DNA of 32,000 bases from Ralstonia sp. UBA689 (GTDB lineage: Bacteria; Pseudomonadota; Gammaproteobacteria; Burkholderiales; Burkholderiaceae), in NCBI RefSeq assembly GCF_002298975.1, contig NZ_DBMV01000024.1:133777-165776 (forward strand), written 5' to 3'. The notes below the pieces were generated by a model that had not been told where the DNA came from, searched no databases, and saw only the letters and a program-made list of their open reading frames with translations. Shown one piece after another: positions 5,445-19,537 of this stretch (positions are counted from its first letter, which is position 1; each line of letters starts with the position of its first letter). Both the position numbers and the translations under genes were made by a program.

Positions 5445-5485
5445 GACAAGACGGCGCCAGTGAAACACTTCGCAGATCTCTCGCA

Positions 5486-6706
5486 TCATCGTCTCCGATT
5501 GCCCCCAGCAGGTGCGGCGTGCGGTGCGGAAGAACCTCTGAACGCTGGCCCGCGCGGTTGCGGCGACGGGGCCGACATGCGGCTCGACTGCCCACGTTGC
5601 GCCTGGTTGCGCACGTCTGCACCGCGTCCGAACGACTCAAATGTGGGCGGGTAGCCGGGCGACTGCGCGCGTCGTGGAGGCGGGCGGACCGCAGGCGCCT
5701 GCCCCGGCGGACGTTGGGGCGGGCCTTGCGGTGCTCGGAATACCGGGCGCGCAGGTGCAACGGGGGAAGGCCGAATCACGGAGCCCGTCGGCGTGGCCGG
5801 TGACGTCGGATAACCGCGAAAGCCGCGCCGCACGTCCGGCGAGACAGCGGCGCCACCAAAGCGCCCCGCCTGCACCGGGCCGGGATACGGAACGCCATGA
5901 CGATGCCCTGGGTCATGTGCCCAGGTCCCGCTCGGGGGCGTACGGTGGTGGTCGATGTTGCCGAAGCGTCCCCGGTCAATATCGATGTGGTGGCCGCGCC
6001 AGTTGAAGTGGCTCCAGCCCCACAGCGGGATGACCGCCGAGAACCCGACCCAGCCAAAGCCGATGCCGCCGACAACCACGCCGCCCCAGATGTCGGGAAA
6101 GAAGTAGGGCGGGTAAGCCGGATACGGCCATGGCGCGTAGACGACATACGGATCGTAGACCGGAACGTAGACGAGGTCTGGGTTGGTTGGCTCGATGATG
6201 ATGGCACCGTCCTGCGTCGACACCATCGCCTCGGTTGTTGAAGCCAGTGTGCCGGCGGCTTGGGCACGGCTGCGCAGACGTTGTATCGAATCCATCACAG
6301 CGGCTTCGTCTGCGAGGAACGCGTTGCCGACGCGCTCCGTCCAGTCGAGGTTGTCGTCCATCATGTGCAGGAGCCCGGGAAACGGCACCAGCGATTTCAC
6401 GCTCGGATCCCATGGCAGCGGCGCGAGTGCATCGGCCAGTCCATTGCCGCTGAGCCCCGCGTGGCCTGGATCCTGCAACCAGCGATCAGCCTGGACCACT
6501 TCGAGCGGATACGTGGCAGCCATGAGGATCTGGGAAACAAGCGCATCCGGATACAGGGCGATGGGAGCCAGCATCTGGTCGAGCTGCTCAGCCGTCGCTT
6601 GCGGCGGATCGTTTTCAGGAAGGTCTTGCTGAGAGAACGCCGTGTTGAACATCAGCAACAAGAAAGCCAGGGCCACTGCCAGCGGCTTCATCGATCTCGC
6701 TTTCAT
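5486..6706 (-). CDS. DUF3300 domain protein (secreted, Pro-rich C-terminus)
   Basis: GGAGG lies 8 nt upstream of the ATG at 6706. MKPLAVALAFLLLMFNTAFS looks like a signal peptide. LDQMLAPIALYPDALVSQILMAATYPLEVVQADRWL is the DUF3300 signature. Confidence 0.8.
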   Translation of the reverse strand: MKARSMKPLAVALAFLLLMFNTAFSQQDLPENDPPQATAEQLDQMLAPIALYPDALVSQILMAATYPLEVVQADRWLQDPGHAGLSGNGLADALAPLPWDPSVKSLVPFPGLLHMMDDNLDWTERVGNAFLADEAAVMDSIQRLRSRAQAAGTLASTTEAMVSTQDGAIIIEPTNPDLVYVPVYDPYVVYAPWPYPAYPPYFFPDIWGGVVVGGIGFGWVGFSAVIPLWGWSHFNWRGHHIDIDRGRFGNIDHHRTPPSGTWAHDPGHRHGVPYPGPVQAGRFGGAAVSPDVRRGFRGYPTSPATPTGSVIRPSPVAPARPVFRAPQGPPQRPPGQAPAVRPPPRRAQSPGYPPTFESFGRGADVRNQAQRGQSSRMSAPSPQPRGPAFRGSSAPHAAPAGGNRRR

Positions 6707-6796: not shown

Positions 6797-6810
6797 TTGA
6801 TGCGCATCAA
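6797..6810. promoter_or_regulatory. perfect FNR/Anr box TTGAT-gcgc-ATCAA
   Basis: Read directly. It lies between the ftsH stop (6844) and the DUF3300 start (6706), with its centre about 98 bp upstream of that start. Confidence 0.65.
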
Positions 6811-6843: not shown

Positions 6844-8784
6844 TCAGGGGTCTCTCCGGTCACGCCCGGAGATTTCCGTGGACGATGCATTGCTGGGCCC
6901 ACCACCCGGCTTGGGGAGCGGCATGGTTGTGACCTTGTCCGACAGGATCATGTCCAGGTCTTGTCGATCGACCACCTCCTTGTCGAGGAGCAACCGAGCC
7001 AGCGCTTCGAGCTTCGCGCGCTGGCTTTCCAGCGTGGCCGTCACACGCGTGGTTGCATCGGTCAGGACGTTGCGTACCTCGGTGTCGATCAACTGGGCCG
7101 TGTGTTCGCTGTACTCCTTACGCTCTCGCTGCGGCCATCCCGTGCCGGAAAGGAGTGGGTTCGGCACGTCTTCGTACGTCGCCAGCCCGAGTTTTTCGCT
7201 CATGCCGAATTGGGTGACCATCTGGCGGGCCATGTCGGTGGCTCGTTGTAGGTCGTTCTGCGCGCCAGTCGACACGTCGCGATAGACGATCTGCTCGGCA
7301 ACGTAGCCGCCCAACAGCACGTCGAGCCGGTCGAGCAGCTCGCTGTGCTTGAGCAGGTAGCGGTCTTCCGTGGGTGTTTGCTGTGTGTAGCCGAGCGCGG
7401 CGACACCTCTGGGGATGATGGAAACCTTGGAGACGCGATCCGCCAGCGGTCGATGTTCCGCAACGATGGCATGACCCGCTTCGTGGTAGGCGATGGTCTC
7501 CTTTTCCTTGGGATTCATCACGCGGTTCTTTTTTTCGAGCCCGCCAACGATACGGTCCAGCGCTTCGTCAAAATCTGCCGTCTCGACGGCTGCTTTGCCT
7601 TTGCGGGCCGCCAGGAGCGCGGCTTCGTTGACGAGGTTGGCGAGGTCTGCCCCGGCAAAGCCTGGGGTTCGGGCGGCGATCTTGTTCAACTCCACGTCGC
7701 TTCCGAGCGTGACGTTCTTGACGTGAACCTGAAGAATCTGCTCGCGCCCCTTGAGATCCGGCCGGTCCAGCGCGATATGGCGGTCAAACCGGCCCGGGCG
7801 CAATAGCGCGGGATCCAGTGTCTCGGGGCGGTTGGTGGCCGCCATGATGATGACGCCCTTGTTGCTGTCAAAACCGTCCATCTCAACCAGAAGCTGGTTC
7901 AGGGTCTGCTCGCGCTCTTCGTTACCGCCGATCATGCTCAGCGCGCGGGTTTTGCCCAAGGCGTCGAGCTCATCGATGAAGATGATGCACGGCGCCATGG
8001 TTTCGGCCTGGCTGAACAGATCGCGCACGCGCGCGGCGCCGACGCCCACGAACATCTCGACAAAATCGGAGCCGCTCATGCTGAAGAACGGGACAGCGGC
8101 CTCACCCGCGACTGCCTTGGCCAACAGCGTCTTGCCCGTGCCGGGAGCGCCGACAATCAGCACCCCTTTGGGAATCCTGCCGCCCAGGCGCTGGTATCGC
8201 TGCGGATCCTTCAGGAAGTTGACGATTTCCGACAACTCTTCCTTGGCTTCATCGATACCGGCAACATCGGCAAAGGTCACACCGGTCTCTTTCTGCATGT
8301 AGACCTTTGCCTTGCTCTTGCCGATCCCCATCAAACCGTTGGCGGCGCCCCCCATACGCCGCATGAGGAAACTCCAGACGGCAAAGAACAGGAGCGCAGG
8401 CACCACCCACGAGAGGATGGAACTTAACCACTTGTTGTCGGGGCGACCAACGAAACGCACCTTGGCGGCTTCCAGCTCCGGGATCAGTGCCGGATCGTTC
8501 ACACGAAGTGTGGTGAAGGCACGATCAGCCTTACCTGTGCGGCGTATCTCATCGACCTGCTGCTTCGTGAGGAGCGTCTCGATGCCCTCAGTGGAAAACG
8601 TACCGGTGATGTCCTGTTCACCAATGGATACATCCTTGAGCTTGCCCGATTTCAGCAGGAGCTTGAAATCGCTGTAGGGAAGCGTCTCGAACTGGTCGGA
8701 CACGAACAGCGTCTGGACCGCGAGCATCATCAATATGACCGCGATGGCGTACCAGAGAGAAAACCTTTGCTGCTGCGGTTCCAT
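6844..8784 (-). CDS. ftsH: ATP-dependent zinc metalloprotease FtsH (paralog)
   Basis: Walker [19 protein letters not shown], the AAA second region of homology, the zinc motif HEAGHAIV, and an N-terminal TM ([20 protein letters not shown]) are present. The start is preferred at the ATG at 8784 (MEPQQQ) because the FNR box at 8880 would place a transcription start near 8845, downstream of the track start at 8850. Confidence 0.9.
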
Positions 8785-8879
8785 GCCGTCTTGTCCTCTG
8801 TCGGCGTCGCTCAATGTCGAACTGTCGTGATGAACATACAAGGCCGGCATTCATCTTCGCGCCTTCACCCGGCGGGCAG

Positions 8880-8893
8880 TTGATGCGGATCAA
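8880..8893. promoter_or_regulatory. perfect FNR/Anr box TTGAT-gcgg-ATCAA
   Basis: Read directly. It is intergenic, between the stop at 8989 and ftsH, with its centre about 102 bp upstream of the ATG at 8784. Confidence 0.65.
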
Positions 8894-9730: not shown

Positions 9731-10006
9731 GGCGTGCTCCTCTCATGCTGGCCGGCCGGTGTTGTGGCGTTCCGACGGCGATGCGACCAATGCCGGCGCG
9801 GTGTGTTTGCATGCCCCCAGTATTGGCGGAGCGGGCAGGGGCGTCATGCAGGCAGCGCTGAGAATCCTGTCGGAGCCGCGGGTTTCCATGTCAGGGAAGC
9901 CTGACAGACGTTGTCGAAACCGCCGAAGGCTTCCAGGCAGTCGGGTTCCGGGGGCATTCCACGTGAGCCGCATGACACACGCGCCCAGGGTGCCGCCGTC
10001 CCCTCG

Positions 10007-10020
10007 TTGATCTGCCGCAA
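10007..10020. promoter_or_regulatory. FNR/Anr-like box TTGAT-ctgc-CGCAA (8/10)
   Basis: Read directly, with its centre about 82 bp upstream of the hsp20 ATG at 10096. Confidence 0.4.
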
Positions 10021-10095
10021 AGCGTGCCCGAGCCGCCGTGCCACGATGAATGTGTGAGCCACTCGGCCATCACGACCATTCATCAGGAGGCAGCC

Positions 10096-10518
10096 ATGAG
10101 CCAACTCAGGCGTTACGACCCGTTTGCCATTGAACCGGTGGGGGATATCTTCCAGGGACTTTTGCGCTCGTTCCGCGGCGGCATGGAGGGGGCGTTGCCG
10201 TTCAAGGTGGACGTGACGGAATCCGACTCTGCGTACAACGTCGTCGCGGAAATCCCCGGTGCAAAGAAGGAAGACATCGATGTCACCGTCGATCGCGGTA
10301 CGGTGATGATCTCGGCCAAGGTGGAGCGCCTGACCGAGAAGAAGGAAGGCGAGCGCATCATCCGCAGTGAGCGCTACAGCGGAGCGATGCAGCGCATGTT
10401 CACGCTGGATGCGGCCATCGACGAGAGCAAGGTCGATGCCTCATACAAGGACGGGCTGCTGCACGTGACGTTGCCCAAGAAAGAGGCTTCGCCGCAACAG
10501 CGCATTACCATCCGTTGA
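10096..10518 (+). CDS. Hsp20/alpha-crystallin small heat-shock protein
   Basis: AGGAGG lies upstream of the ATG at 10096. The alpha-crystallin core is present (VDVTESDSAYNVVAEIPGAKKEDIDVTVDRGTVMISAK...SYKDGLLHVTLPKK). Confidence 0.9.
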   Translation: MSQLRRYDPFAIEPVGDIFQGLLRSFRGGMEGALPFKVDVTESDSAYNVVAEIPGAKKEDIDVTVDRGTVMISAKVERLTEKKEGERIIRSERYSGAMQRMFTLDAAIDESKVDASYKDGLLHVTLPKKEASPQQRITIR

Positions 10519-10532
10519 TTGGTGGCCCACGC

Positions 10533-11891
10533 ATGCAACTCCAATTTCTCGGGGCAACCGATACGGTGACCGGGTCGAAGTATGTGCTGCAGACCCAGAA
10601 GCATCGCGTCATGGTCGATTGCGGGCTGTTTCAGGGCTACAAGTCCTTGCGGCTGCGCAACTGGGACAAGCTCGCGGTCAACCCGCACCACATTGACGCC
10701 GTGGTTCTCACCCACGCGCATATCGACCACAGCGGCTATCTGCCGCTGCTGGTCCGCAACGGGTTTCGCGGCCCCGTCTATTGCACGAAAGGCACCGCCG
10801 AGCTATGCCGCATCCTGTTGCCCGACAGCGCGCGCCTGGCCGTGGAAGATGCGCAGTACGCCAACGCGCAGGGCTTTTCTCGGCATCACCCGGCACTGCC
10901 GCTCTATGACGAGGAGGATGCCGCCAAGGCGTTGCGCAGATTGCACCCGGTGGCCTACGGGGAGCGCTTCTCCGTGGTTGACGGTGTGGAGGCGGAGTTC
11001 CACCGCGCCGGGCATATCATCGGCGCGGCCACGGCAACCTTGCTTGCGGACGGCCGGCGGATTGTCTTCTCCGGCGATCTGGGCAGGCAGGCGGACCTGG
11101 TCATGCGGCCGCCGGAACCTGTGGCGGAGGCCGATACCCTGCTGGTCGAATCTACCTATGGTGACCGGCTGCATCCGGCAGGCGATCCGCTCGACACGCT
11201 CGAACAGATCGTCCAGCGAACCATCGGTCAAGGCGGCACCTTGTTGATTCCGGCATTCGCGGTCGGGCGCACGCAGGCGCTGCTGTATTGCCTTTACAGG
11301 CTGATTCGGGAGCGCCGCATCCCGCATGTGCCAATCTATCTCGACAGTCCGATGGCCGAGCAAGCGACCGAAGTGTTTGCCCGCCATGTCGACGACCTGC
11401 ATATCGATGCGGCGGATTGCCAGGCGGCATGCGCGCTGGCGGTACCGGTGCAGAGTCCGCAGCAGTCAATGCATCTGGGCAACGACCGCACCCCCAAGAT
11501 CATCCTCGCGGCCAGCGGCATGGCCACGGGTGGCCGTGTCTTGCATCACCTCAAGAGCTTCGGCGGGGGCAAGCGCAACACCATCCTGATGTCCGGATTC
11601 CAGGCCGCAGGCACGCGCGGCGCGGCGTTGTTGGCCGGCCAGCGAGGTCTGCGCGTACATGGCCGCGACATTACCATTCGTGCCACGGTCGAGCAGATCC
11701 AGAATCTCTCCGCCCATGCAGACGCCAGCGAGCTGATGACCTGGTTGCGTGGCTTTATCCATGCCCCGCAGCAGACCTTCATCGTGCACGGCGAGCCAGC
11801 CGCCAGCGACGCGCTGCGCCAACGCATCGAGCATGAACTCCGCTGGCCGGTGCTCATGCCCGAGTATCGACAGTCCTACGCAGTGAGTTGA
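10533..11891 (+). CDS. MBL-fold metallo-hydrolase of the beta-CASP (RNA-metabolising) type
   Basis: MQLQFLGATDTVTGSKY followed by VLTHAHIDHSGYLP gives the HxHxDH motif. The length and C-terminal pattern (SAHADASELMTWL) are typical of beta-CASP. The ATG at 10533 lies 15 nt after the hsp20 stop. Confidence 0.8.
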   Translation: MQLQFLGATDTVTGSKYVLQTQKHRVMVDCGLFQGYKSLRLRNWDKLAVNPHHIDAVVLTHAHIDHSGYLPLLVRNGFRGPVYCTKGTAELCRILLPDSARLAVEDAQYANAQGFSRHHPALPLYDEEDAAKALRRLHPVAYGERFSVVDGVEAEFHRAGHIIGAATATLLADGRRIVFSGDLGRQADLVMRPPEPVAEADTLLVESTYGDRLHPAGDPLDTLEQIVQRTIGQGGTLLIPAFAVGRTQALLYCLYRLIRERRIPHVPIYLDSPMAEQATEVFARHVDDLHIDAADCQAACALAVPVQSPQQSMHLGNDRTPKIILAASGMATGGRVLHHLKSFGGGKRNTILMSGFQAAGTRGAALLAGQRGLRVHGRDITIRATVEQIQNLSAHADASELMTWLRGFIHAPQQTFIVHGEPAASDALRQRIEHELRWPVLMPEYRQSYAVS

Positions 11892-11893
11892 CC

Positions 11894-12856
11894 ATGACAC
11901 CGCAAACCGCCGTTCATGCATCACCCGACAAGGCACAAAAACGCGTGGTACTTGCCTTGCCGGGCAACCAGGCCGCAGCAGCCAGATTGGCGGTGCCGTT
12001 ATGCGCGGAGATCGGCCAAGCCGACGTGCGACGCTTTCCCGATGGCGAATCCTATGTGCGCCTGCAAACACCGGTGCGCGATGCGGAAGTCGCCATTGTC
12101 TGCACGTTGGACCGGCCGGATGAGAAGATTCTGCCGCTACTGTGGCTCGCGATTGCCGCCAGAGAGGGCGGGGCGCGTCGCGTTGGGCTGGTGGCGCCTT
12201 ACCTGGGTTACATGCGGCAGGACGGCGTCTTCCAGCCGGGAGAAATTCTCGCAGCGCAGCACTTTGCCGAACTACTGACCCGCTACTTCGACTGGCTGGT
12301 AGCCGTGGATCCGCACCTGCACCGCATTCCGGCCTTGTCGGATATCTTCGGCATTCCGGCTATCGCGGTGCTGGCGGCTCCAGCCGTGGCGGCCTGGGTA
12401 CAGGGCCATGTTGCCGATCCGCTGCTGGTAGGTCCCGACGACGAAAGCCGCCACCAGGTCGAGCACGTCGCCCGCCTGTGTGGTGCACCTTGGACTGTCC
12501 TGCATAAGACGCGCCACAACGCGTGGAACGTAGAGGTGACGGCCACCGGAACCGATCTGAGTTCCGGGCGCACGCCTGTGCTGGTGGACGACATCATCTC
12601 AACCGGCCGCACCATGATTGCGGCGGCCGAACTATTGCGCCGGGCCGGGTTGCCGCGTCCACAGTGCGTTGCGGTCCACGCCGTGTTCACGGCCGACGCG
12701 TACAGCGAGTTGACGGCAGTGGCTGCCGACGTGCTGACCTGCGACACCATCGCTCACCCATCCAACCGCATCGAGCTAACAGAACCGGTCGCTGAGGCGA
12801 TTTCCACCATGTTTGATCTACCTCTGCCCGCCATCACGCAGAACCTTGTCCGGTGA
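11894..12856 (+). CDS. ribose-phosphate diphosphokinase (Prs)-like phosphoribosyltransferase
   Basis: The PRPP-binding loop PVLVDDIISTGRTM and the N-terminal Prs-like block RFPDGESYVRL are present. The ATG at 11894 lies 3 nt after the MBL stop (11889-11891). Confidence 0.75.
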   Translation: MTPQTAVHASPDKAQKRVVLALPGNQAAAARLAVPLCAEIGQADVRRFPDGESYVRLQTPVRDAEVAIVCTLDRPDEKILPLLWLAIAAREGGARRVGLVAPYLGYMRQDGVFQPGEILAAQHFAELLTRYFDWLVAVDPHLHRIPALSDIFGIPAIAVLAAPAVAAWVQGHVADPLLVGPDDESRHQVEHVARLCGAPWTVLHKTRHNAWNVEVTATGTDLSSGRTPVLVDDIISTGRTMIAAAELLRRAGLPRPQCVAVHAVFTADAYSELTAVAADVLTCDTIAHPSNRIELTEPVAEAISTMFDLPLPAITQNLVR

Positions 12857-12872
12857 GGGCGGGGCTTCTACG

Positions 12873-12886
12873 CTGACAGGCATCAA
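12873..12886. promoter_or_regulatory. FNR/Anr-like box CTGAC-aggc-ATCAA (8/10)
   Basis: Read directly, with its centre about 66 bp upstream of the ATG at 12946. Confidence 0.3.
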
Positions 12887-12945
12887 GGCCAGGCATGAGC
12901 GTCTGGCCCCGAAGGTGGCAAGGCCCCAACTCCACGGGATGCATC

Positions 12946-13245
12946 ATGAAAGAGATCGTGTTTACGGCCGACGAGCCCATCTACTGTGCAAGTGGCCCGG
13001 TCCTGCAGTGTGGCGCCTCGGTGGACGGCAGCAGTGCCAGCTATGCCGTCACCGCGGAAGCACTTGAAGACCACTTCGGCGCCATCTCATGCCGCGCTGA
13101 AGACCTGATGGCGGCCTTTTCCAGCCATCGGAGCGACATCGAGGCCGTCGCCCGGGCCATGTTCGAGATGACAGGATCGAAACAGATCACGCTGCACAGC
13201 GGCCACTTCCGCTTCCCCCTGGACTCGCTCGTGACTCGCCCGTAA
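12946..13245 (+). CDS. DUF1488 family protein
   Basis: [46 protein letters not shown] matches the DUF1488 pattern (...VDG..V.C.I..EAL.DHFGA). The start is taken at the ATG at 12946. Confidence 0.65.
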
Positions 13246-13267
13246 TCGATATTCTGGAGTGCACGCC

Positions 13268-14842
13268 ATGCTCGTGCCGCCCGACATGACGGCAGTGCCC
13301 GATCGGCTCACATTCAAACCACTGGGCATCGACACCTGGCAGGAGCATGTCATCTACATGCATCCGGATTGCACGATCTGCCGCGCAGAAGGGTTTTCCG
13401 CACAAGCGCGGGTGGAAGTGCGCATCGGCCAGCGTGCCCTGATCGCCACCCTCAATCTCGTGGGTTCAGGCTTGCTCGACACGCATGAGATCAGCTTGTC
13501 CGCCAGCGCAGAAGAGTCGCTGATGGCGCGGCCCGGCGATATCGTGAGTGTCAACCATGCGCCGTCGCTGGAATCGCTGCGTGCCGTGCGCGCCAAAATC
13601 TACGGAGCGCACCTGGATACGCATCAACTGGCTAGCATCGTGAGCGACATTTCCGGCGAACGGTACGCTGATGTCCACATCGCGGCGTTCCTGAGTGCTT
13701 GCGCGGGCGGACGGATGAGCGTGAAGGAGACGACCGACCTCACGCAGGCCATGGTGGACTCCGGTGAGCGCCTGAAATGGGATCGGGCCGTCGTTGCCGA
13801 CAAGCACTGCGTGGGCGGACTGCCCGGCAACCGCACCAGCCCCATCGTCGTGGCCATCGCGGCTGCGGCCGGTCTGCTGCTGCCCAAGACATCGTCCCGC
13901 GCCATCACGTCACCCGCGGGCACGGCCGACACAATGGAAACGCTCACGCGCGTTGCGTTGAGCGCCAAGGAACTGCGGCACGTTGTCGATCGTGTCGGGG
14001 CTTCGCTGGCGTGGGGCGGTGCGTTGAGTCTCAGCCCGGCCGATGATGTTCTGATTCGCGTGGAACGGGCGCTGGATGTGGATAGCGACGCCCAACTGGT
14101 GGCCTCCATCCTCTCGAAGAAGATTGCTGCCGGGTCCACTCACGTCTTGATCGACGTGCCCGTTGGGCCTACAGCCAAGGTGCGTCGCCTGCAGGACTTG
14201 GAGCGCCTGCGCATGCTGCTTGAGCGCGTGGCGAAATCCTTTGGCATTCACGTCATGATCGTGCGCACCGATGGCTCTCAACCGGTGGGCCGTGGCATTG
14301 GCCCGGCGCTTGAAGCACGAGACGTCCTGGCTGTCCTGCAACGCTCGCCCACGGCACCGTTCGATTTGCGGGAGCGGTCGTTGTTGCTGGCTGGCGCGTT
14401 GCTGGAGTTTTGTGAGGCCGTGCCGCAAGGGGGTGGGCTCGATCTGGCCACCAGCGTGCTGGACAGCGGCGCTGCCTGGCGGAAGTTTCAGGAAATCTGC
14501 GAGGCGCAGGGGGGCTTGCGCGTACCTGGTGAAGCCATCTTCCGTCGCGATGTCGTGGCCGGGCAGGATGGCGTCGTCAGCGATATCGACAACCGGCATC
14601 TCGCCCGCATCGCAAAGCTGGCTGGAGCGCCGATGCGTCAAGTTGCCGGTGTGGAGATGCATGCGCGCCTGCATGACCGGGTCAGAGCAGGGCAACCGCT
14701 GTTCACGATCCATGCCCAGGCTTCGGGCGAGCTGGAGTACTCCTTTGCCTTTGCGCGGATGCATCCGGCCGTTTGCCTGGCCCCGATCGAGCGCATCGAC
14801 CCACTCGCGCCCCCGGCCTCAGTGGAGCAACCCGCACAGTGA
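13268..14842 (+). CDS. thymidine phosphorylase family protein (long, AMP-phosphorylase-like form)
   Basis: The glycosyltransferase family-3 core is present ([47 protein letters not shown]). There is an extra N-terminal region of about 90 aa before the helical domain. GGAG lies 9 nt upstream of the ATG at 13268; the track start is a GTG at 13259. Confidence 0.85.
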
Positions 14843-14870
14843 GCGATGTGCTGGCGGGCTCAACGCATTT

Positions 14871-14898
14871 CTCTCGCATAATGTATCTTATGTTAAAT
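14871..14898 (+). other. dif: dif site (XerC/XerD recombination site), acting as attL of the prophage
   Basis: CTCTCGCATAA-TGTATC-TTATGTTAAAT compared with E. coli dif GGTGCGCATAA-TGTATA-TTATGTTAAAT gives XerC arm 7/11, central region 5/6 and XerD arm 11/11. It is intergenic, 28 bp after the stop at 14842. Confidence 0.85.
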
Positions 14899-14921
14899 CA
14901 CGCAGACGCCTGTGGGCGCGT

Positions 14922-15167
14922 CTACAACAGGCGCTGCGTGCAATCCAGGCACGCACGGAACCTACACCCGCGTGACCGGCAACACATCAGTAAGTCAAGC
15001 ACCTCCCTCTTTGAAACGCCTGCCTCGAGCAGGCGTTTTTTCTTCTTCTCGATCTTCCTGTAGTAACGCCTGCGCGGCGCGTCTTGAATACCTCGGCGCA
15101 GATACCGGATGTGCCAATACAGATTCCGAATCTCCCGCGCCAACAACCTCTTGTCATCGTCGGTCAC
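14922..15167 (-). CDS. questionable small basic ORF (81 aa)
   Basis: GTG start with no clear RBS. The ORF contains the strong hairpin at 15014-15044 (translated as KKKKRLLEAGV). The N-terminal two thirds look protein-like, while the Cys/Arg-rich tail looks like read-through. Confidence 0.25.
   Translation of the reverse strand: MTDDDKRLLAREIRNLYWHIRYLRRGIQDAPRRRYYRKIEKKKKRLLEAGVSKREVLDLLMCCRSRGCRFRACLDCTQRLL
15014..15044 (+). terminator. rho-independent terminator (phage-side; follows the circular-form repressor ORF)
   Basis: AAACGCCTGC-ctcga-GCAGGCGTTT followed by TTTTCTTCTTC gives a 10-bp perfect stem and a T-run. Confidence 0.7.
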
Positions 15168-15652: not shown

Positions 15653-15835
15653 AAAGCGGGCTTGCAAGAGAGGGGGTGTTTGCCTGTGGCGCAGGATGGA
15701 CAACTTGGTGGTCATACCCGCTGCTCGGTCCCGCGGGGCGCCCTCCGGGCGTCAACCGTCCTGCACCTGGTCAACTCTCCATGTCCCCAAAGGGGCCCCC
15801 TTGCGGCTCCGATCAGAGCGCGGACACTCCCTACG

Positions 15836-16036
15836 CTAGTCGTCGCACGCCTTCACAACAAATGCGCACACGTTAGCAATGACTAAACCACCGACAAAAA
15901 CCCACCAGTTCTCAATTCGAAGATTCGTGCCATAAAACACAGCCCAAACAAGCGCCGCTTGACCAACCAAAATCGCAACCACAGCAAGCAAATATTTCAC
16001 AGCACCCTCACTAGTCACAAAAGCGCGGACACTCAC
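15836..16036 (-). CDS. small two-TM membrane protein downstream of zot
   Basis: GTG start 21 nt after the zot stop. There are two clear hydrophobic spans (YLLAVVAILVGQAALVWAVFYG and WWVFVGGLVIANVCAFVV). The composition is unlike the Arg/Pro-rich spurious ORFs of this window. Confidence 0.45.
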   Translation of the reverse strand: MSVRAFVTSEGAVKYLLAVVAILVGQAALVWAVFYGTNLRIENWWVFVGGLVIANVCAFVVKACDD

Positions 16037-16057
16037 ACTTTTCTCAGTAACGAAAAT

Positions 16058-17209
16058 TCAGCCTTCAGGAAAGGCCTCCAGCTCATCAACGCGCCGTGCC
16101 CTGCCCGAACCTATGACCGTCCGTTTGCGAGGCTCCTGGGCGCGTTCCCGCTGCGGCGAGGCCTCCACGACCAGCTTCAGCTCCTGCGGTTGCGCTACTG
16201 CAGTAGAAACAGGCGCCGGAGACGGCTGCACAGCGGCCTGCACCTTCTGAGCCCGACCATCAGCCTCGAAGGCCTCGAAGAAACCGCGCTTGACCAGGTC
16301 AGCACAGATCTGCGGCGTTGTCTCCAGATGCGTACCCTGCTGGGTCCAGCACTCGCAACCGCCACGAATCTGCACACACGCGGCCGGCACCGGCACCCGC
16401 GACGGCTTCGTGAGCTCATCATAGGCCGGGGCCGTGTACTGCAGACCAGGAACACGCGGCGTATAGCTCGCCACGTATTCCGACGCCGTCATCGGCGCAG
16501 CCTTTTGAGGCTGGCCGACCATCGCACCCGGTGCGCCAGGCAGACCAGGCACGGCACCAGGCGAAGCAGTTGCAAGCTTCACCTGGTCAGGATGCGAGAT
16601 CTTCCAAAGCTTCCAGCCGCCAAACACCGCCGCAGCCAGGGCCACCACCGGCAGCGCGTACATCATGTAGTACTTGAGCGGGATCGCCTTCTTGTGCGTG
16701 TGAGCATCGGCGGACTTGTACCACTCGAAGACCTGCTTGGGATACGGGAAGCTGCTGTGCAACGCACGCTTGAGATTCGCGTTCGTTGGGTCCTGCACCT
16801 TCTGCATCTTGAACAGATCCGCCTTCTGCCGACCCCACTGGCGGATCAGGTGGATATGCTCACCGGCGAGCTTCTTCAAGTGGTTGTCGACCAGGCTCGG
16901 GTCCTGCGTCATGAAGAACAGGTCGAAGCCTTTGTGACGATGCGTCTCCAGCTCGGACACATGCTGCGGCGGCTTCGAGCTCGAAGGCCTCGGCGGCATG
17001 ACCTTCTGCACCTCGTCGATCACGATGATCGACTTCTCCGGGCACTCATGCCACTTCGTCGCATCCTCCAGCATGGTCCACGGCAGCGTGAGCTCCGGAA
17101 TACCGAAATAGAAAACAGGCCGGTTCTCAGCCTTCCGCTTCGCCTCCACAAACGCGATCGTGTAGAGGCTCTTACCATTACCAGGTTGACCTGTGATGAG
17201 CGTCAGCAT
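16058..17209 (-). CDS. zot: Zot-family assembly ATPase (inovirus pI)
   Basis: MLTLITGQPGNGKSLYTI carries a Walker A motif, IIVIDEVQ is a Walker B-like motif, and there is a central TM (YALPVVALAAAVFGGWKLW). The start is taken at the ATG at 17209, 7 nt after the pVI-like stop. Confidence 0.85.
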   Translation of the reverse strand: MLTLITGQPGNGKSLYTIAFVEAKRKAENRPVFYFGIPELTLPWTMLEDATKWHECPEKSIIVIDEVQKVMPPRPSSSKPPQHVSELETHRHKGFDLFFMTQDPSLVDNHLKKLAGEHIHLIRQWGRQKADLFKMQKVQDPTNANLKRALHSSFPYPKQVFEWYKSADAHTHKKAIPLKYYMMYALPVVALAAAVFGGWKLWKISHPDQVKLATASPGAVPGLPGAPGAMVGQPQKAAPMTASEYVASYTPRVPGLQYTAPAYDELTKPSRVPVPAACVQIRGGCECWTQQGTHLETTPQICADLVKRGFFEAFEADGRAQKVQAAVQPSPAPVSTAVAQPQELKLVVEASPQRERAQEPRKRTVIGSGRARRVDELEAFPEG

Positions 17210-17216
17210 GTCGGCC

Positions 17217-17537
17217 TCACTTCTGAACCATCTTGCGAATCGAGCCACCGCTCAAACCGGACAACGATGCGCGAATGCCCAACGTCGTGAGAATCATGTT
17301 CATCGAGGTGCCCACCTTCAGCACGCCGAGGATGCCCACCACACTCACAGACGAGATCGAGCCAACACCGTTCACGTACTGCATGAAGAGCGTCTTCATG
17401 CCACTCATCATTGCATCGACCCCCGTGAACATCACGAAGCCGATACCGAGCGCAACCAGGACACGCCCGACCAACGACACGCAGGCCTGCGCCAACAAAC
17501 CAACAATGGCCGAAGCCAACAGAGCAGCGAAAGGCAT
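17217..17537 (-). CDS. pVI-like minor coat/membrane protein (DUF2523-like)
   Basis: MPFAALLASAIVGLLAQACVSLVGRVLVALGIGFVMFTGV is strongly hydrophobic. The ATG overlaps the pIII-like stop (TGATG at 17535-17539). The position between g3 and zot is typical. Confidence 0.65.
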   Translation of the reverse strand: MPFAALLASAIVGLLAQACVSLVGRVLVALGIGFVMFTGVDAMMSGMKTLFMQYVNGVGSISSVSVVGILGVLKVGTSMNMILTTLGIRASLSGLSGGSIRKMVQK

Positions 17538-18949
17538 CAGAAACTCCCCTTGAGCATGTAGGCGCAGAGCATCATCGTGCCCAGCATGTTGAGATAACCG
17601 AGCAGCTTGCCGATGTCGCACAACGGCGTCGTGTCCATGTGCAAACTCCAAACACGATCAGGCAACTGCAACGGAACATCGATGTTCCCGAGACACTGAG
17701 CAGCGATACCCATGTCATCAACGTTAGAAAACTTGGAGCTCATGTCCACCTTGTCGGCACCATCGGGCGTGGGCAACTTACCGGCCAACGGATCCTGACC
17801 GCTCCCGAGCTTCGCGCCGAGATCCGTCGAATCATCGTGCTTCTGCAACTCACAACGGGTGTTCCACTGCTGAGCCAGAATCGCGCAACTAATCGCATCA
17901 CCATCACAGGTCGGCGGCGCACTGCAATCGACACCACCACTCGCGGAATCCTTCTTGCATTGAGCTGCTGTCGGATTCTGCTTGCAATAGTCTTCCTGCG
18001 GCTGCGAAGTCGTCGTCGTGCAAGTCCCGGCACCACCATTAACCGTGCCACCTGTGCTGACCTGCGTCGCCTGACAAGGCCCCGCAGCCGTACCACTCGC
18101 AGCACCACCCGAACCACTCCCACCTGTACCGCTGCCAGTCGTCGTTGTCGTCGTCGTGCAAGTCGCGCCATCACACGTTGTGCTCGTGCTCGTGCTGCTG
18201 GAATTCGACGCGGGAACACCGCTGGCAGGCGTATCCGTTGTCGTTGAGTTCGTCGTGCCGCCAGTTGTCTGCGTCGGATACGGAACGCAGACGTTCTGCC
18301 CATTCACCGTGCCGGAATACGTTTTGTCCGGACACGAACTCGTCGGCTTCGTATCCACAGCATTAGGCATCCCCGACCCGCTACAAGACGCGTAATTCGA
18401 AGTCAGCCCGTACCACTCTGCAGAGTAGCCGCCAGACTGCCCTGCCTGCGCACCAGTCCAATAACTGCTGTACCCATACGAACAGCTATTGACGCAAACA
18501 GCCGAGTTAGTCACCGTCTGCGTCGCACTCGTGCCATACGCAGTATTCCCACCCGGAGCGGACTGACCAGCCGCAGGACAATTTGGAGCAGGCGTCGCAC
18601 ACACATACTTCCCAGTCGAATCCGTCTGCAACACCTGCGGTGTCGTGCACGTCAACGGTGGAACAGACTCACTCTTACCAACAACCAAATAGCCGCTGTT
18701 GTACCCCTGCCTATCCCAACACGTTCCACTCGGAGGCGCAAACGTCGCTGACACAGAAGCACACGCATCCGCACCCGTATCGTAATAACCAAGCAACGCA
18801 TTCGTGCTTTGCTTACGCAGCTCAAAATAACCCGCCCAAACGCTAGAACCCCACATCAGGCCAAAGGCAAGCACTAACACCTGTAGCGCACGAGCCCGGC
18901 GGAGCGGAATCCAGATGCGTACAGGAAGCAAGAAAAATGACCAGGGCAT
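17537..18949 (-). CDS. pIII-like adsorption / minor coat protein
   Basis: 470 aa with an N-terminal signal/TM, a Cys-rich N-terminal half and Thr/Ser/Gly linkers (TTCDGATCTTTTTTTGSGTGGSGSGGAASGTAAG). The C-terminal hydrophobic anchor is LLGYLNMLGTMMLCAYML. The position between the coat gene and the pVI-like gene is typical. Confidence 0.7.
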   Translation of the reverse strand: MPWSFFLLPVRIWIPLRRARALQVLVLAFGLMWGSSVWAGYFELRKQSTNALLGYYDTGADACASVSATFAPPSGTCWDRQGYNSGYLVVGKSESVPPLTCTTPQVLQTDSTGKYVCATPAPNCPAAGQSAPGGNTAYGTSATQTVTNSAVCVNSCSYGYSSYWTGAQAGQSGGYSAEWYGLTSNYASCSGSGMPNAVDTKPTSSCPDKTYSGTVNGQNVCVPYPTQTTGGTTNSTTTDTPASGVPASNSSSTSTSTTCDGATCTTTTTTTGSGTGGSGSGGAASGTAAGPCQATQVSTGGTVNGGAGTCTTTTSQPQEDYCKQNPTAAQCKKDSASGGVDCSAPPTCDGDAISCAILAQQWNTRCELQKHDDSTDLGAKLGSGQDPLAGKLPTPDGADKVDMSSKFSNVDDMGIAAQCLGNIDVPLQLPDRVWSLHMDTTPLCDIGKLLGYLNMLGTMMLCAYMLKGSF

Positions 18950-18961
18950 AGCTCACCACCC

Positions 18962-19021
18962 TCACGAAAAAAGAATCCATCCAGCACCCGCTATCGCAAT
19001 GAGAACGAAGTAGCCTTCCAT
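18962..19021 (-). CDS. tiny hydrophobic ORF (19 aa, MEGYFVLIAIAGAGWILFS), possible minor virion/assembly peptide
   Basis: This ORF is not in the track and was read by hand. GGAG lies 8 nt upstream of the ATG at 19021. The stop TGA at 18962-18964 lies 12 nt before the g3 ATG. Confidence 0.3.
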   Translation of the reverse strand: MEGYFVLIAIAGAGWILFS

Positions 19022-19031
19022 GACGAGCTCC

Positions 19032-19057
19032 AATAAAAACGGGGACCGAAGTCCCCG
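19032..19057 (-). terminator. rho-independent terminator/attenuator after the major coat gene
   Basis: The minus strand reads CGGGGAC-TTCG-GTCCCCG followed by TTTTTATTG. It is preceded by a second hairpin, GGCACG-N5-CGTGCC, at 19068-19084. Confidence 0.75.
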
Positions 19058-19092
19058 CGTCTTGCCAGGCACGGGGAGCGTGCCCCGCAGCA

Positions 19093-19299
19093 TCACTTGA
19101 TCGGCTTGCGAACCCAGTTGTAGATCGCCACGACAGCAGCGAGCCCCAGGATGGCCACTCCGATCAGACCGATCGCAGCGACACCCGTACCCAGCGTGGT
19201 CACCACTGCCGACACATCCACGCCATCGGCAGCCATCGCCGAACCAGCGACACCGACAGTACCAACGGCAAAACCCACTTTCTTGAAAATCGACTTCAT
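19093..19299 (-). CDS. major coat protein (pVIII-like)
   Basis: The 68-aa product MKSIFKKVGFAVGTVGVAGSAMA|ADGVDVSAVVTTLGTGVAAIGLIGVAILGLAAVVAIYNWVRKPIK has a signal peptide, an acidic N-terminus, a TM and a basic C-terminus. AGGAG lies upstream of the ATG at 19299. Confidence 0.8.
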   Translation of the reverse strand: MKSIFKKVGFAVGTVGVAGSAMAADGVDVSAVVTTLGTGVAAIGLIGVAILGLAAVVAIYNWVRKPIK

Positions 19300-19303
19300 C
19301 GCC

Positions 19304-19537
19304 CTACTCCTCTTCACGTTGATAAATGGCCCGCGCTGCGGACCGAAAGACGAAAGCGAGAGCCCATAGACCGAGCATCGCGCTCCCAATTAGGGCACCG
19401 TCACTCACCGAGAGCGGCGGCACCGCATGCAACAGCGTGACCTCATCAGCAGTCAGCAGCAGATACCCCGTGCACGACGAAGCTGAAGTGCTATCGAACT
19501 GCAGCTGCCCACTGACGATTTGCACGCACTGAGCCAT
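19304..19537 (-). CDS. small membrane protein (phage morphogenesis/minor coat candidate)
   Basis: The ATG at 19537 overlaps the upstream stop (TGATG). The C-terminal TM is GALIGSAMLGLWALAFVF. It lies immediately upstream of the coat gene. Confidence 0.5.
   Translation of the reverse strand: MAQCVQIVSGQLQFDSTSASSCTGYLLLTADEVTLLHAVPPLSVSDGALIGSAMLGLWALAFVFRSAARAIYQREEE

What the first reader, a model, noticed from the sequence alone, without database searches (positions are those of the whole stretch)
10096..14842. Hsp20 / beta-CASP hydrolase / Prs-like operon next to an AMP-phosphorylase-like enzyme: possible RNA-to-ribose salvage module
The hsp20, MBL and prs-like genes are packed tightly (stop-to-start gaps of 15 nt and 3 nt). 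DUF1488 and a roughly 524-aa thymidine-phosphorylase-family protein follow. That protein carries about 90 extra N-terminal residues, an architecture I associate with archaeal-type AMP phosphorylases rather than the roughly 440-aa DeoA. A beta-CASP nuclease, a nucleotide phosphorylase and a PRPP-synthetase-like enzyme under FNR-like boxes suggest a pathway. In that pathway RNA or nucleotides would be broken down to ribose phosphates (ribose-1,5-bisphosphate or PRPP) for maintenance energy or salvage during oxygen limitation or dormancy. This is inference from gene content only.
Basis: inference. Interest (0 to 1): 0.65.

Follow-up and report, generated by a model that had tools for sequence, protein, structure and literature searches.

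The report
Bacterial AMP-phosphorylase-like / Prs-like gene pair
A Ralstonia stress operon holds an uncharacterised gene pair found in hundreds of bacteria: a relative of archaeal AMP phosphorylase almost always next to its own PRPP-synthase-like enzyme, often with an RNase, which suggests a route for breaking nucleotides down to ribose phosphates when oxygen is scarce.

Summary
Five same-strand genes lie at 10096-14842: hsp20, a beta-CASP MBL hydrolase, a Prs-like gene, DUF1488 and a 524-aa thymidine-phosphorylase-family gene (TPL). Gaps are 14, 2, 38 and 22 nt, and the only strong terminator-like site follows the last gene.

- **TPL** is not DeoA. Its best solved relative is Thermococcus AMP phosphorylase (E 2.6e-97; model TM 0.84, N-domain included). 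It shares AMPpase-specific active-site motifs. It belongs to a separate bacterial sister clade (37% identity) and misses the AMP_phos equivalog cut-off.
- **Prs-like** is not the housekeeping Prs. It belongs to subfamily PRK07199, resembles archaeal class III Prs, and keeps the catalytic residues.
- **Synteny is the new result.** 72 of 78 Prs-like loci have TPL adjacent, and 56 of 65 TPL loci have Prs-like adjacent. The beta-CASP gene joins in about 60%. Hsp20 and DUF1488 are Ralstonia additions. Some lineages add a divergent phosphoketolase-like gene and acetate kinase.
- **Regulation.** The window carries lxa-like low-oxygen genes, two perfect FNR boxes, and a conserved imperfect box before hsp20.

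The RNA-to-ribose-phosphate reading is plausible but untested, and the fate of ribose-1,5-bisphosphate is unknown.

The parts
9889..9906 (.). Perfect palindrome TGTCAG-N6-CTGACA in the LRAT/hsp20 divergent intergenic region. Possible second regulator site.
   Evidence: Both 6-base arms are invariant in four diverged Ralstonia promoters while the flanks vary. Function not tested.
10007..10020 (+). FNR/Anr-like box TTGATCTGCCGCAA (2 mismatches to TTGAT-N4-ATCAA), 76-89 nt upstream of the hsp20 ATG.
   Evidence: Found. All 14 positions are invariant in four promoters whose mean column identity is 69%. A conserved CGTGCCACGAT(G/A)AAT block follows about 20 nt downstream.
10096..10518 (+). Small heat-shock protein (Hsp20/alpha-crystallin), first gene of the operon. 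A lineage-specific addition.
   Evidence: PF00011, E 3.7e-21. Adjacent to the module only in the Ralstonia clade and a few other loci.
10533..11891 (+). Beta-CASP metallo-beta-lactamase-fold ribonuclease homologue (452 aa).
   Evidence: Beta-Casp, RMMBL and Lactamase_B domains. Best solved relative is T. thermophilus RNase TTHA0252, E 4.9e-75. The HxHxDH motif, later His/Asp motifs and beta-CASP motifs A-C are visible in the alignment. Next to TPL in 42 of 65 untruncated TPL loci.
11894..12856 (+). Prs-like ribose-phosphate diphosphokinase homologue (subfamily PRK07199). An alternative TTG start at 11888 overlaps the MBL stop codon.
   Evidence: NF005537 PRK07199 420 bits (cut-off 322). TIGR01251 189 bits (cut-off 113). 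Class I PRK01259 only 126 bits (cut-off 297). Best solved relative is M. jannaschii class III Prs 1U9Y, E 2.4e-40. RFPDGE, PYLxYMRQD, DPH, the K-x-R loop and DDIISTxxT are conserved in 62 family members.
12895..13245 (+). DUF1488 protein (alternative start 12946). A Ralstonia-specific insertion between Prs-like and TPL.
   Evidence: PF07369, E 6.6e-17. Present only in L001-L003 and their duplicates. A weak FNR-like 14-mer, CTGACAGGCATCAA, lies at 12873-12886.
13268..14842 (+). TPL: an AMP-phosphorylase-like member of the thymidine phosphorylase superfamily (524 aa), made of an N-terminal domain plus the TP core.
   Evidence: TIGR02645 719 bits (cut-off 434.6). TIGR03327 AMP_phos 468.5 bits (cut-off 535). 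DeoA model TIGR02643 136 bits (cut-off 570.7). PDB 4GA5, E 2.6e-97. AlphaFold2 model pLDDT 89.4, and Foldseek TM 0.84 to 4GA5 over 501 columns. Sister clade to archaeal/CPR AMPpases. Shares AMPpase-specific motifs.
15013..15039 (+). Terminator-like hairpin (11 pairs) followed by a T-run, about 170 nt after the TPL stop codon. Likely the operon end.
   Evidence: The only other + strand hit in 10096-14842 is a weak 6-pair site inside TPL.
6844..8893 (-). Context: an extra FtsH protease gene with a perfect FNR box (8880-8893) upstream.
   Evidence: Peptidase_M41 and AAA domains. Box TTGATGCGGATCAA. The B. cenocepacia lxa locus also encodes a low-oxygen-induced ATP-dependent Zn protease, BCAM0309 (PMC3721108).
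3704..6810 (-). Context: a BCAM0308-family gene (3704-4246) and a DUF2950/DUF3300 pair (4530-6706) with a perfect FNR box at 6797-6810.
   Evidence: NF040826 lxa_BCAM0308 160.6 bits (cut-off 100). DUF2950 and DUF3300. Box TTGATGCGCATCAA.

Best explanation
The region is one operon of five genes. It probably runs from a CRP/FNR-type promoter near 10007-10060 to a terminator at 15013-15039.

Its conserved core is a two-gene metabolic module. One gene is an AMP-phosphorylase-like enzyme (TPL). The other is a dedicated class-III-like PRPP-synthase homologue (PrsL). A TTHA0252-type beta-CASP ribonuclease is attached in about 60% of genomes.

The most likely mechanism has three steps.
1. In oxygen-limited or otherwise non-growing cells, the beta-CASP nuclease releases 5'-NMPs from RNA. 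This is inferred from family membership.
2. TPL phosphorolyses nucleoside 5'-monophosphates to a free base plus ribose-1,5-bisphosphate. This is inferred from sister-clade position, shared motifs and fold.
3. PrsL works on the ribose-phosphate side of the same pool, interconverting ribose-5-phosphate or ribose-1,5-bisphosphate with PRPP and adenylates. The exact reaction is unknown.

The result would be that pentose phosphate and bases are recovered and AMP is removed. In some lineages the operon also encodes a divergent phosphoketolase-like protein and acetate kinase. That would let the pentose be turned into acetyl-phosphate and ATP without respiration.

Shown here: gene identities, conserved linkage, conserved catalytic motifs, and FNR-type boxes. 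Inferred: every substrate, the direction of flux, and low-oxygen induction in this organism.
For: **Identity**
- TPL's best solved relative is Tk-AMPpase (E 2.6e-97), with the alignment covering the N-domain.
- The model has pLDDT 89.4. Foldseek TM is 0.84 to 4GA5, 0.62-0.70 to TP/PyNP and about 0.47 to TrpD.
- In the NJ tree, 74 bacterial TPLs and 41 archaeal/CPR AMPpases are reciprocally monophyletic sisters, outside TP/PyNP.
- TPL shares the AMPpase-specific one-residue insertion PGN(K/R)T and the motifs [16 protein letters not shown], ERAL and GPALEAR. TP/PyNP have GD-T, SGRGLGHTGGT and RD-T instead.
- PrsL keeps all Prs catalytic motifs.
- The MBL keeps all beta-CASP motifs and is closest to an experimentally solved RNase.

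**Linkage**
- 72 of 78 PrsL-anchored loci have TPL adjacent, and 3 of the 6 exceptions are truncated contigs.
- 56 of 65 untruncated TPL-anchored loci have PrsL.
- All 67 pairs are on the same strand, with a median gap of 45 bp.
- MBL is present in 42 of 65 and 46 of 78 loci.
- The pair occurs in alpha-, beta- and gamma-proteobacteria, Bacteroidota, Planctomycetota, Acidobacteriota, Gemmatimonadota, Myxococcota and Verrucomicrobiota.

**Pathway hints**
- In Lentimonas locus L211 the genes ackA, phosphoketolase-like, MBL, TPL and PrsL have overlapping start and stop codons.
- A phosphoketolase-like gene occurs in 14 of 80 TPL loci.
- Acetate kinase, a D-lactate-dehydrogenase-like gene and PPK2 also recur.

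**Regulation and context**
- The window has two perfect FNR boxes and a phylogenetically conserved imperfect one.
- TTGA-N6-TCAA occurs at 0.28 per kb upstream of module operons against 0.064 per kb background.
- The window also encodes an lxa BCAM0308-family protein.
- In B. cenocepacia, the 51-kDa MBL-superfamily 'metal-dependent RNase' BCAM0300 and the Hsp20 BCAM0278 are induced 30-fold and 240-fold by low oxygen (PMC3721108, PMC6127331).
Against: - No enzyme activity, expression data or mutant exists for any member of the TPL or PrsL clades in the literature I could search.
- TPL fails the AMP_phos equivalog cut-off. It differs from AMPpases in the phosphate loop, which reads DKHC-V-GG against DVHS-I-GG. 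Its substrate could therefore differ.
- No enzyme known to consume ribose-1,5-bisphosphate (isomerase, PhnN) stood out among the recurrent neighbours, so the middle of the pathway is missing.
- Archaeal and CPR AMPpase loci have no PrsL or MBL neighbours, so the archaeal pathway cannot simply be transferred.
- Only about 8% of module operons have an FNR-type box, so low-oxygen control is not general.
- Two thirds of the closest MBL homologues occur without TPL.
- A PRPP synthase consumes ATP, which sits awkwardly with an energy-saving role.
Confidence: 0.45

Rival explanations
1. Anabolic or salvage direction. PrsL supplies PRPP (or a ribose bisphosphate), and TPL works as a (phospho)ribosyl transferase that joins a base to it. 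The pair would rebuild nucleotide pools cheaply during or after dormancy, and the RNase would only supply bases.
For: - The tight PrsL-TPL linkage is what one expects when the product of one enzyme is the substrate of the other, and PRPP is the product of a Prs.
- The TP fold is shared with the PRPP-using TrpD (Foldseek hits).
- The [14 protein letters not shown] segment of TPL and AMPpase resembles my recollection of TrpD's NRA-SS-SGSAD more than it resembles TP's GRGLGHTGGT. The TrpD motif is from memory.
- TPL retains the Lys of DKH that most archaeal AMPpases lack.
Against: - TPL is much closer to AMPpase (37-41% identity, TM 0.84) than to TrpD (about 19% identity, TM 0.47).
- The acidic Mg-PPi site of TrpD was not examined.
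- The operon partners seen in some lineages (phosphoketolase-like, acetate kinase, D-lactate-dehydrogenase-like) are catabolic.
Confidence: 0.2
2. Ordinary nucleoside salvage. TPL is just a pyrimidine-nucleoside/thymidine phosphorylase with an extra domain, and PrsL is a spare PRPP synthase isozyme. The stress context is incidental.
For: - Databases name the family 'thymidine phosphorylase family protein' or 'putative thymidine phosphorylase'.
- The base-binding SxLSKK segment is shared with TP/PyNP.
Against: - DeoA and PyNP models are all far below cut-off: TIGR02643 136 against 570.7, TIGR02644 186 against 409, NF004490 191 against 269.
- Identity to TP/PyNP is only about 27%.
- The phosphate and ribose loops follow the AMPpase pattern, not the TP pattern.
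- Near-obligate pairing with a special Prs class is not a feature of deoA operons. The latter point is from my knowledge of deoCABD.
Confidence: 0.12
3. A canonical archaeal-type AMP pathway. TPL makes ribose-1,5-bisphosphate, which an isomerase and a RuBisCO encoded elsewhere convert to 3-phosphoglycerate.
For: Sister-clade relation to AMPpases. Some hosts (Cupriavidus, and some Ralstonia relatives) carry RuBisCO; this is from my own knowledge.
Against: - No IF-2B-type isomerase or RuBisCO was among the recurrent neighbour families.
- Many hosts, such as Legionella, Flavobacterium, Achromobacter and Bordetella, are heterotrophs not known to have RuBisCO. This point is from my knowledge and was not tested here.
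- AMPpase loci of archaea and CPR bacteria lack PrsL and MBL.
Confidence: 0.05

Closest known systems
Archaeal AMP phosphorylase (T. kodakarensis TK0353; PDB 4GA4-4GA6; NCBIfam TIGR03327) and the archaeal/CPR pentose bisphosphate (AMP) pathway
   Same: - Same domain architecture: an N-terminal domain plus the TP core.
- Best sequence and fold match.
- Shared AMPpase-specific loops.
- Sister clades in the tree.
   Different: - Only about 37% identity, and below the equivalog cut-off.
- The phosphate loop reads DKHC(V)GG instead of DVHS(I)GG.
- Four to five clade-specific conserved cysteines, including a C/SxxC motif in the N-domain.
- Partners are a Prs-like enzyme and often a beta-CASP RNase. 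They are not the ribose-1,5-bisphosphate isomerase and type III RuBisCO of the published archaeal pathway.
- Hosts are mostly aerobic Pseudomonadota and Bacteroidota.
Class III (archaeal-type) PRPP synthase, M. jannaschii Prs (PDB 1U9Y). Non-canonical bacterial PRPS classes are surveyed in bioRxiv 10.64898/2026.06.01.728777.
   Same: Best solved relative (E 2.4e-40). All catalytic motifs are kept. The preprint reports that non-class-I bacterial PRPS classes retain the catalytic residues.
   Different: - A separate NCBIfam subfamily (PRK07199).
- Family-specific signatures: DPHLHR with a 3-residue insertion, GPDxESEQW, and K-x-R-GDRDV.
- Almost always encoded next to TPL.
- The preprint does not mention this linkage. 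I could not assign the protein to one of its classes.
Low-oxygen-activated (lxa) locus of Burkholderia cenocepacia (Sass et al. 2013, PMC3721108)
   Same: - Shared gene kinds: Hsp20, an MBL-superfamily 'metal-dependent RNase' of 51 kDa (BCAM0300), an extra FtsH-type protease (BCAM0309) and a BCAM0308-family protein.
- An Anr/FNR-like TGA-N6-TCA motif.
- Acetate kinase is also in lxa.
   Different: - No thymidine-phosphorylase-family or Prs-like gene is listed for lxa in the papers read.
- The window lacks the USP genes that dominate lxa.
- Orthology of the MBL to BCAM0300 was not checked by sequence.
T. thermophilus TTHA0252 beta-CASP ribonuclease (PDB 2DKF/3IEK)
   Same: Same length class (431 against 452 aa), same domain set, all motifs present, E 4.9e-75.
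   Different: The activity of the Ralstonia protein is untested. RNase J and Cas14 models score far below cut-off.
Functional analogues (from my own knowledge): E. coli AMP nucleosidase Amn (removes AMP to protect energy charge), and PhnP/PhnN of the C-P lyase pathway (an MBL-fold phosphodiesterase makes ribose-1,5-bisphosphate, and a kinase converts it to PRPP)
   Same: They deal with the same metabolites (AMP, ribose-1,5-bisphosphate, PRPP). They show that bacteria can link these metabolites.
   Different: Unrelated protein families. No homology to Amn or PhnN was seen here. This is a resemblance by logic only and was not tested.

Membership tests
AMP phosphorylase (EC 2.4.2.57; NCBIfam TIGR03327 equivalog) | Score at or above the curated equivalog cut-off | tested here: not met
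   468.5 bits against a cut-off of 535.
AMP phosphorylase (EC 2.4.2.57; NCBIfam TIGR03327 equivalog) | Extra N-terminal domain in front of the thymidine-phosphorylase core | tested here: met
   Residues 52-105 align with the Tk-AMPpase N-domain. Foldseek aligns 501 columns to full-length 4GA5, TM 0.84.
AMP phosphorylase (EC 2.4.2.57; NCBIfam TIGR03327 equivalog) | Active-site loops of AMPpase type rather than TP type | tested here: inconclusive
   PGN(K/R)T, [16 protein letters not shown], ERAL and GPALEAR are shared. However, the phosphate-loop Ser is Cys in 66 of 74 TPLs, and Lys is retained. The residues that bind the 5'-phosphate in 4GA6 could not be looked up, because the papers are not held.
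AMP phosphorylase (EC 2.4.2.57; NCBIfam TIGR03327 equivalog) | Nested within the clade of characterised AMPpases | tested here: not met
   The NJ tree gives reciprocally monophyletic sister clades. Mean identity between them is 37%.
AMP phosphorylase (EC 2.4.2.57; NCBIfam TIGR03327 equivalog) | Occurs with ribose-1,5-bisphosphate isomerase and type III RuBisCO | tested here: inconclusive
   Neither was among the recurrent neighbour families. Whole genomes could not be searched.
AMP phosphorylase (EC 2.4.2.57; NCBIfam TIGR03327 equivalog) | Phosphorolysis of AMP/CMP/UMP to base plus ribose-1,5-bisphosphate | not testable with these tools
   Needs an enzyme assay.
'Putative thymidine phosphorylase' family (NCBIfam TIGR02645 / PRK04350) | Score above the curated cut-off | tested here: met
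   TIGR02645 719.1 bits (cut-off 434.6). NF003338 684.9 bits (cut-off 434).
Thymidine / pyrimidine-nucleoside phosphorylase (DeoA, PyNP) | Score above the curated cut-offs, and TP-type loops (KHSTGGVGD, SGRGLGHTGGT) | tested here: not met
   TIGR02643 136.4 against 570.7. TIGR02644 186.3 against 409. NF004490 191 against 269. The loops differ.
Ribose-phosphate diphosphokinase (PRPP synthase) superfamily | Family model above cut-off, and catalytic motifs present (RFxDGE, PYxxYxRQD, D-x-H, flexible-loop K-x-R, DDxxxTxxT) | tested here: met
   TIGR01251 189.2 bits (cut-off 113). PRK07199 420.1 bits (cut-off 322). Motifs are conserved in 62 members.
Housekeeping class I Prs | Score above the class I model cut-offs | tested here: not met
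   PRK01259 126.4 against 297. Other class I equivalogs score 72-108 bits against cut-offs of 438-536.
Beta-CASP ribonucleases | MBL, Beta-Casp and RMMBL domains with the metal-binding and A/B/C motifs | tested here: met
   Pfam hits. The alignment to TTHA0252 shows HAHIDH, the later His and Asp, and E206, H395 and H419. RNase activity was not tested.
FNR/Anr-type low-oxygen regulon (lxa-like) | Consensus TTGAT-N4-ATCAA box at promoter distance | tested here: inconclusive
   The hsp20 promoter box has 2 mismatches but is invariant in 4 species. Perfect boxes lie before ftsH and DUF3300. No regulator gene is in the window. Induction by low oxygen was not tested.

The most novel reading that the evidence does not exclude
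TPL and PrsL may together form an energy-conserving nucleotide phosphorolysis system.

- TPL would capture the N-glycosidic bond of RNA-derived NMPs as the 1-phosphate of ribose-1,5-bisphosphate.
- PrsL, a Prs scaffold with its own HLHR, ESEQW and GDRDV signatures, would use ribose-1,5-bisphosphate rather than ribose-5-phosphate.
- Possible PrsL reactions are ribose-1,5-bisphosphate + AMP/ADP giving ribose-5-phosphate + ADP/ATP, or ribose-1,5-bisphosphate + ATP giving PRPP + ADP.
- RNA would then serve as a fermentable reserve for aerobes caught without oxygen.
- The route would be extended to acetate plus ATP where the phosphoketolase-like and acetate kinase genes are in the operon.
- The clade-specific cysteines (C/SxxC, and the active-site Cys) would act as a thiol switch that restricts activity to reducing conditions.
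Probability: 0.1. Interest if true: 0.85.

Novelty: new variant of a known kind. Interest (0 to 1): 0.6.

Why it matters
AMP phosphorylase and the pentose bisphosphate pathway are described for archaea and CPR bacteria only. This work finds a large sister family in ordinary aerobic bacteria, with at least 8000 clusters at 90% identity. The hosts include Legionella, Bordetella, Achromobacter and Ralstonia. The family is wired to a different partner, a dedicated PRPP-synthase-like enzyme, and often to an RNase.

If the enzymes do what their relatives do, this would be an unrecognised route of nucleotide and RNA turnover in non-growing or oxygen-starved bacteria. That bears on how obligate aerobes persist in hypoxic niches such as the cystic fibrosis lung, plant xylem and biofilms.

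It would also show that the name 'thymidine phosphorylase family protein', carried by thousands of database entries, is misleading. Finally, it gives two clean, assayable targets.

Tried and rejected
- **Anti-phage defence system.** PADLOC gave nothing except two marginal MBL-domain hits. Rejected.
- **TPL-PrsL gene fusions.** None found. The 670-800-aa 'TPL' ORFs are upstream ORF extensions in GC-rich DNA.
- **PrsL or MBL next to archaeal/CPR AMPpase genes.** Absent, apart from one 33%-identical MBL in a Saccharibacteria locus.
- **Obtaining a ribose-1,5-bisphosphate isomerase query from archaeal/CPR AMPpase neighbourhoods.** The neighbours were unrelated genes. As a result, no isomerase or RuBisCO search of the bacterial loci was possible beyond family clustering.
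- **Literature.** Seven of the eight full-text searches found no paper on the bacterial TPL family, on its pairing with a Prs, or on its expression. The remaining search found the lxa papers. The AMPpase papers (J Bacteriol 2012; the structure paper) are not held, so the exact 5'-phosphate-binding residues could not be checked.
- **lxa supplementary tables.** Not held.
- **tRNA and Rfam scans of the window.** Nothing found.
- **Plasmid annotation for the best DNA match** (Ralstonia sp. RRA.1 megaplasmid, 80.5% identity). No features were listed.
- **Not used.** The representative-library search and further whole-database protein searches would not have separated the rival explanations.

Full report
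**Observation.** The window is Ralstonia DNA. Positions 10000-15000 are 80.5% identical to a Ralstonia sp. RRA.1 megaplasmid. Positions 15.7-23 kb are an inovirus prophage about 84% identical to R. pickettii phage p12J.

Five + strand genes sit at the reported place:
- hsp20, 10096-10518
- a beta-CASP MBL-fold gene, 10533-11891
- a Prs-like gene, 11894 (or TTG 11888)-12856
- DUF1488, 12895 or 12946-13245
- a 524-aa thymidine-phosphorylase-family gene, here called TPL, 13268-14842

Gaps read from the sequence are 14, 2 (or a 4-nt overlap), 38 and 22 nt. The only strong terminator-like hairpin on the + strand lies at 15013-15039, after TPL.

**What the proteins are: TPL.**
- It scores 719 bits on TIGR02645 ('putative thymidine phosphorylase'). 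It scores 468.5 bits on the AMP phosphorylase equivalog TIGR03327, below the cut-off of 535. It scores 136-191 bits on DeoA and PyNP models, all far below cut-off.
- Its best solved relative is T. kodakarensis AMP phosphorylase, at E 2.6e-97. That alignment starts inside the N-terminal domain which TP and PyNP lack.
- An AlphaFold2 model (pLDDT 89.4, pTM 0.85) matches 4GA5 with TM 0.84 over 501 columns. It matches TP/PyNP at 0.62-0.70 and TrpD at about 0.47.

**What the proteins are: Prs-like and MBL.**
- The Prs-like protein belongs to NCBIfam subfamily PRK07199 (420 bits). It is far from class I housekeeping Prs models.
- Its best solved relative is the class III Prs of M. jannaschii.
- Across 62 family members the motifs RFPDGE, PYLxYMRQD, DPH, the flexible-loop K-x-R and DDIISTxxT are conserved. 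The family also has signatures of its own: HLHR with a 3-residue insertion, GPDxESEQW, and GDRDV.
- The MBL protein has Beta-Casp and RMMBL domains. It is closest to the T. thermophilus ribonuclease TTHA0252 (E 4.9e-75), with all motifs present.

**Conservation.**
- I fetched 80 genome loci around TPL relatives, 78 new ones around MBL relatives and 78 new ones around Prs-like relatives. I mapped the window's proteins onto them.
- From the Prs-like side, 72 of 78 loci have TPL next door. Three of the six exceptions are contigs that end at the gene.
- From the TPL side, 56 of 65 loci with at least 1.5 kb on both sides have the Prs-like gene. All 67 pairs are on the same strand, with a median gap of 45 bp.
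- MBL accompanies the pair in 42 of 65 and 46 of 78 loci. The usual order is MBL-TPL-PrsL. Only 26 of 78 of the closest MBL homologues have TPL nearby.
- The conserved unit is therefore the TPL/Prs-like pair, and the RNase homologue is a frequent optional partner.
- Hsp20 (about 5 of 80 loci) and DUF1488 (Ralstonia clade only) are local additions.
- Hosts span alpha-, beta- and gamma-proteobacteria, Bacteroidota, Planctomycetota, Acidobacteriota, Gemmatimonadota, Myxococcota and Verrucomicrobiota.
- Recurrent further neighbours are a copper-type P-type ATPase (26 of 80 loci) and a very divergent phosphoketolase-family protein (14 of 80). The latter scores 144 bits against a cut-off of 777, and its best solved-structure (PDB) match is only E 2e-24. 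Acetate kinase, a D-lactate-dehydrogenase-like enzyme and PPK2 also recur.
- In a Lentimonas contig, the genes ackA, phosphoketolase-like, MBL, TPL and PrsL have overlapping start and stop codons.

**Relation to AMP phosphorylase.**
- I collected 40 archaeal and CPR AMPpase genes with the Tk sequence. I added E. coli DeoA, recalled from memory and verified as identical to 1AZY, and two PyNPs.
- In an NJ tree on 493 columns, the 74 bacterial TPLs and the 41 AMPpases are each monophyletic. They are sisters to the exclusion of TP/PyNP.
- Mean identities are 55% within TPL, 37% between TPL and AMPpase, and 27% between TPL and TP/PyNP.
- TPL shares the loops that separate AMPpase from TP: the inserted PGN(K/R)T, [16 protein letters not shown], ERAL and GPALEAR.
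- TPL differs in having DKHC(V)GG where AMPpases have DVHS(I)GG.
- TPL also has clade-specific cysteines: C35 (56 of 74; Ser in the rest), C38 (72 of 74), C145, C181 and C411. C35 and C38 form a C/SxxC motif at the start of a predicted helix.
- Archaeal and CPR AMPpase loci have no Prs-like or MBL neighbours.
- TPL thus works most likely like an AMP phosphorylase. It is not a member of the characterised equivalog, and it sits in a different genetic circuit.

**Regulation and context.**
- The window has 15 matches to TTGAT-N4-ATCAA with at most 2 mismatches, against 7.1 +/- 2.7 expected.
- Two are perfect and lie upstream of an extra ftsH (8880-8893) and of a DUF3300/DUF2950 pair (6797-6810).
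- The hsp20 promoter carries TTGATCTGCCGCAA (10007-10020). This is imperfect but invariant in four Ralstonia promoters that are otherwise 69% identical. An upstream palindrome, TGTCAG-N6-CTGACA, has both arms invariant in the same set.
- The gene at 3704-4246 belongs to the lxa BCAM0308 family.
- In B. cenocepacia the lxa locus is induced by low oxygen. It contains an Hsp20 (240-fold), an MBL-superfamily 'metal-dependent RNase' of 51 kDa (BCAM0300, 30-fold), a Zn protease (130-fold) and acetate kinase, behind a TGA-N6-TCA motif (PMC3721108, PMC6127331). No TPL or Prs-like gene is listed there.
- Across 139 distinct module operons, TTGA-N6-TCAA occurs at 0.28 per kb upstream against 0.064 per kb overall, but in only 11 operons.
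- Low-oxygen control is therefore plausible for this Ralstonia operon and some other lineages. It is not a general property of the module.

**Mechanism.**
- The best-supported reading starts with the beta-CASP nuclease supplying 5'-NMPs.
- TPL then phosphorolyses NMPs to base plus ribose-1,5-bisphosphate.
- The Prs-like enzyme then handles the ribose phosphate, PRPP and adenylate side.
- Where phosphoketolase-like and acetate kinase genes are in the operon, the pentose could be fermented to acetate with ATP gain.
- Only gene identity, motif conservation and linkage are shown. Substrates and direction are inferred.
- The weak point is the step after ribose-1,5-bisphosphate, because no known consumer is linked.
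- That gap, together with the near-obligate pairing, allows a bolder reading in which the Prs-like enzyme itself uses ribose-1,5-bisphosphate. I rate this at about 10%.
- The rival explanations are an anabolic salvage pair (20%), ordinary nucleoside salvage (12%) and the canonical RuBisCO-linked AMP pathway (5%).

**Novelty.**
- Searches of the held literature found nothing on this bacterial family, its pairing or its expression.
- A 2026 preprint on PRPS diversity recognises extra bacterial PRPS classes with retained catalytic residues, but does not mention this linkage.
- I file the finding as a new variant of a known kind.

**Limits.**
- The tree is NJ on sequence sets chosen as best hits to two queries, so intermediate sequences may exist.
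- Neighbourhoods cover only 6-10 kb on each side.
- Whole genomes could not be searched for ribose-1,5-bisphosphate isomerase, RuBisCO or PhnN.
- Orthology of the MBL to BCAM0300 was not checked by sequence.

Noticed in passing
window 13268-14842 (TPL residues C35, C38, C145, C181, C411 of the 524-aa protein): The bacterial TPL clade has conserved cysteines that archaeal/CPR AMPpases and TP/PyNP lack. They include a C/SxxC motif at the start of a predicted helix in the N-domain, and a Cys replacing the phosphate-loop Ser (DKHC against DxHS). This could be a thiol redox switch.
   Followed up: partly
L211:748-3129 and 13 other TPL loci (e.g. L065:5583-7952, L200:3614-5995): A very divergent phosphoketolase-family protein of about 790 aa (144 bits against an NCBIfam cut-off of 777; best solved-structure (PDB) match E 2e-24) is encoded in or beside the module operon, sometimes with acetate kinase. 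Its substrate may not be the usual xylulose-5-phosphate or fructose-6-phosphate.
   Followed up: partly
window 9889-9906: Perfect palindrome TGTCAG-N6-CTGACA between the divergent LRAT-like gene and hsp20. Both 6-base arms are invariant in four Ralstonia species. It is a candidate site for a second regulator.
   Followed up: no
window about 15700-23000: Integrated filamentous (inovirus) prophage with Zot-like (16058-17248, -) and Rep_trans (20338-21594, -) genes. It is about 84% identical over 38% of the query to Ralstonia phage p12J. It lies directly downstream of the operon, and no tRNA is nearby.
   Followed up: partly
window 1975-4246 (- strand): A Cpn60/TCP-1-family chaperonin gene (558 aa) lies next to the lxa BCAM0308-family gene, with a weak FNR-like box at 4310-4323. 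In R. thomasii (L003) the erythromycin-esterase-family gene lies right next to ftsH, so the block between those two genes in the window (about 1.2-6.8 kb) looks like a variable insertion.
   Followed up: no
L005, L013, L026, L053, L077, L137-L140 and other loci: A copper-type P-type ATPase (HMA domain; TIGR01511, 610 bits) is the commonest further neighbour of the module (26 of 80 TPL loci). It often comes with a MerR-like gene, a His-rich small protein and an ICMT-like membrane methyltransferase. The reason for the link is unknown.
   Followed up: no
window 26629-31984: Meta-cleavage-type aromatic degradation genes (DmpG-like aldolase, FAA-hydrolase-family protein, aldehyde dehydrogenase). 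They are unrelated to the finding.
   Followed up: no
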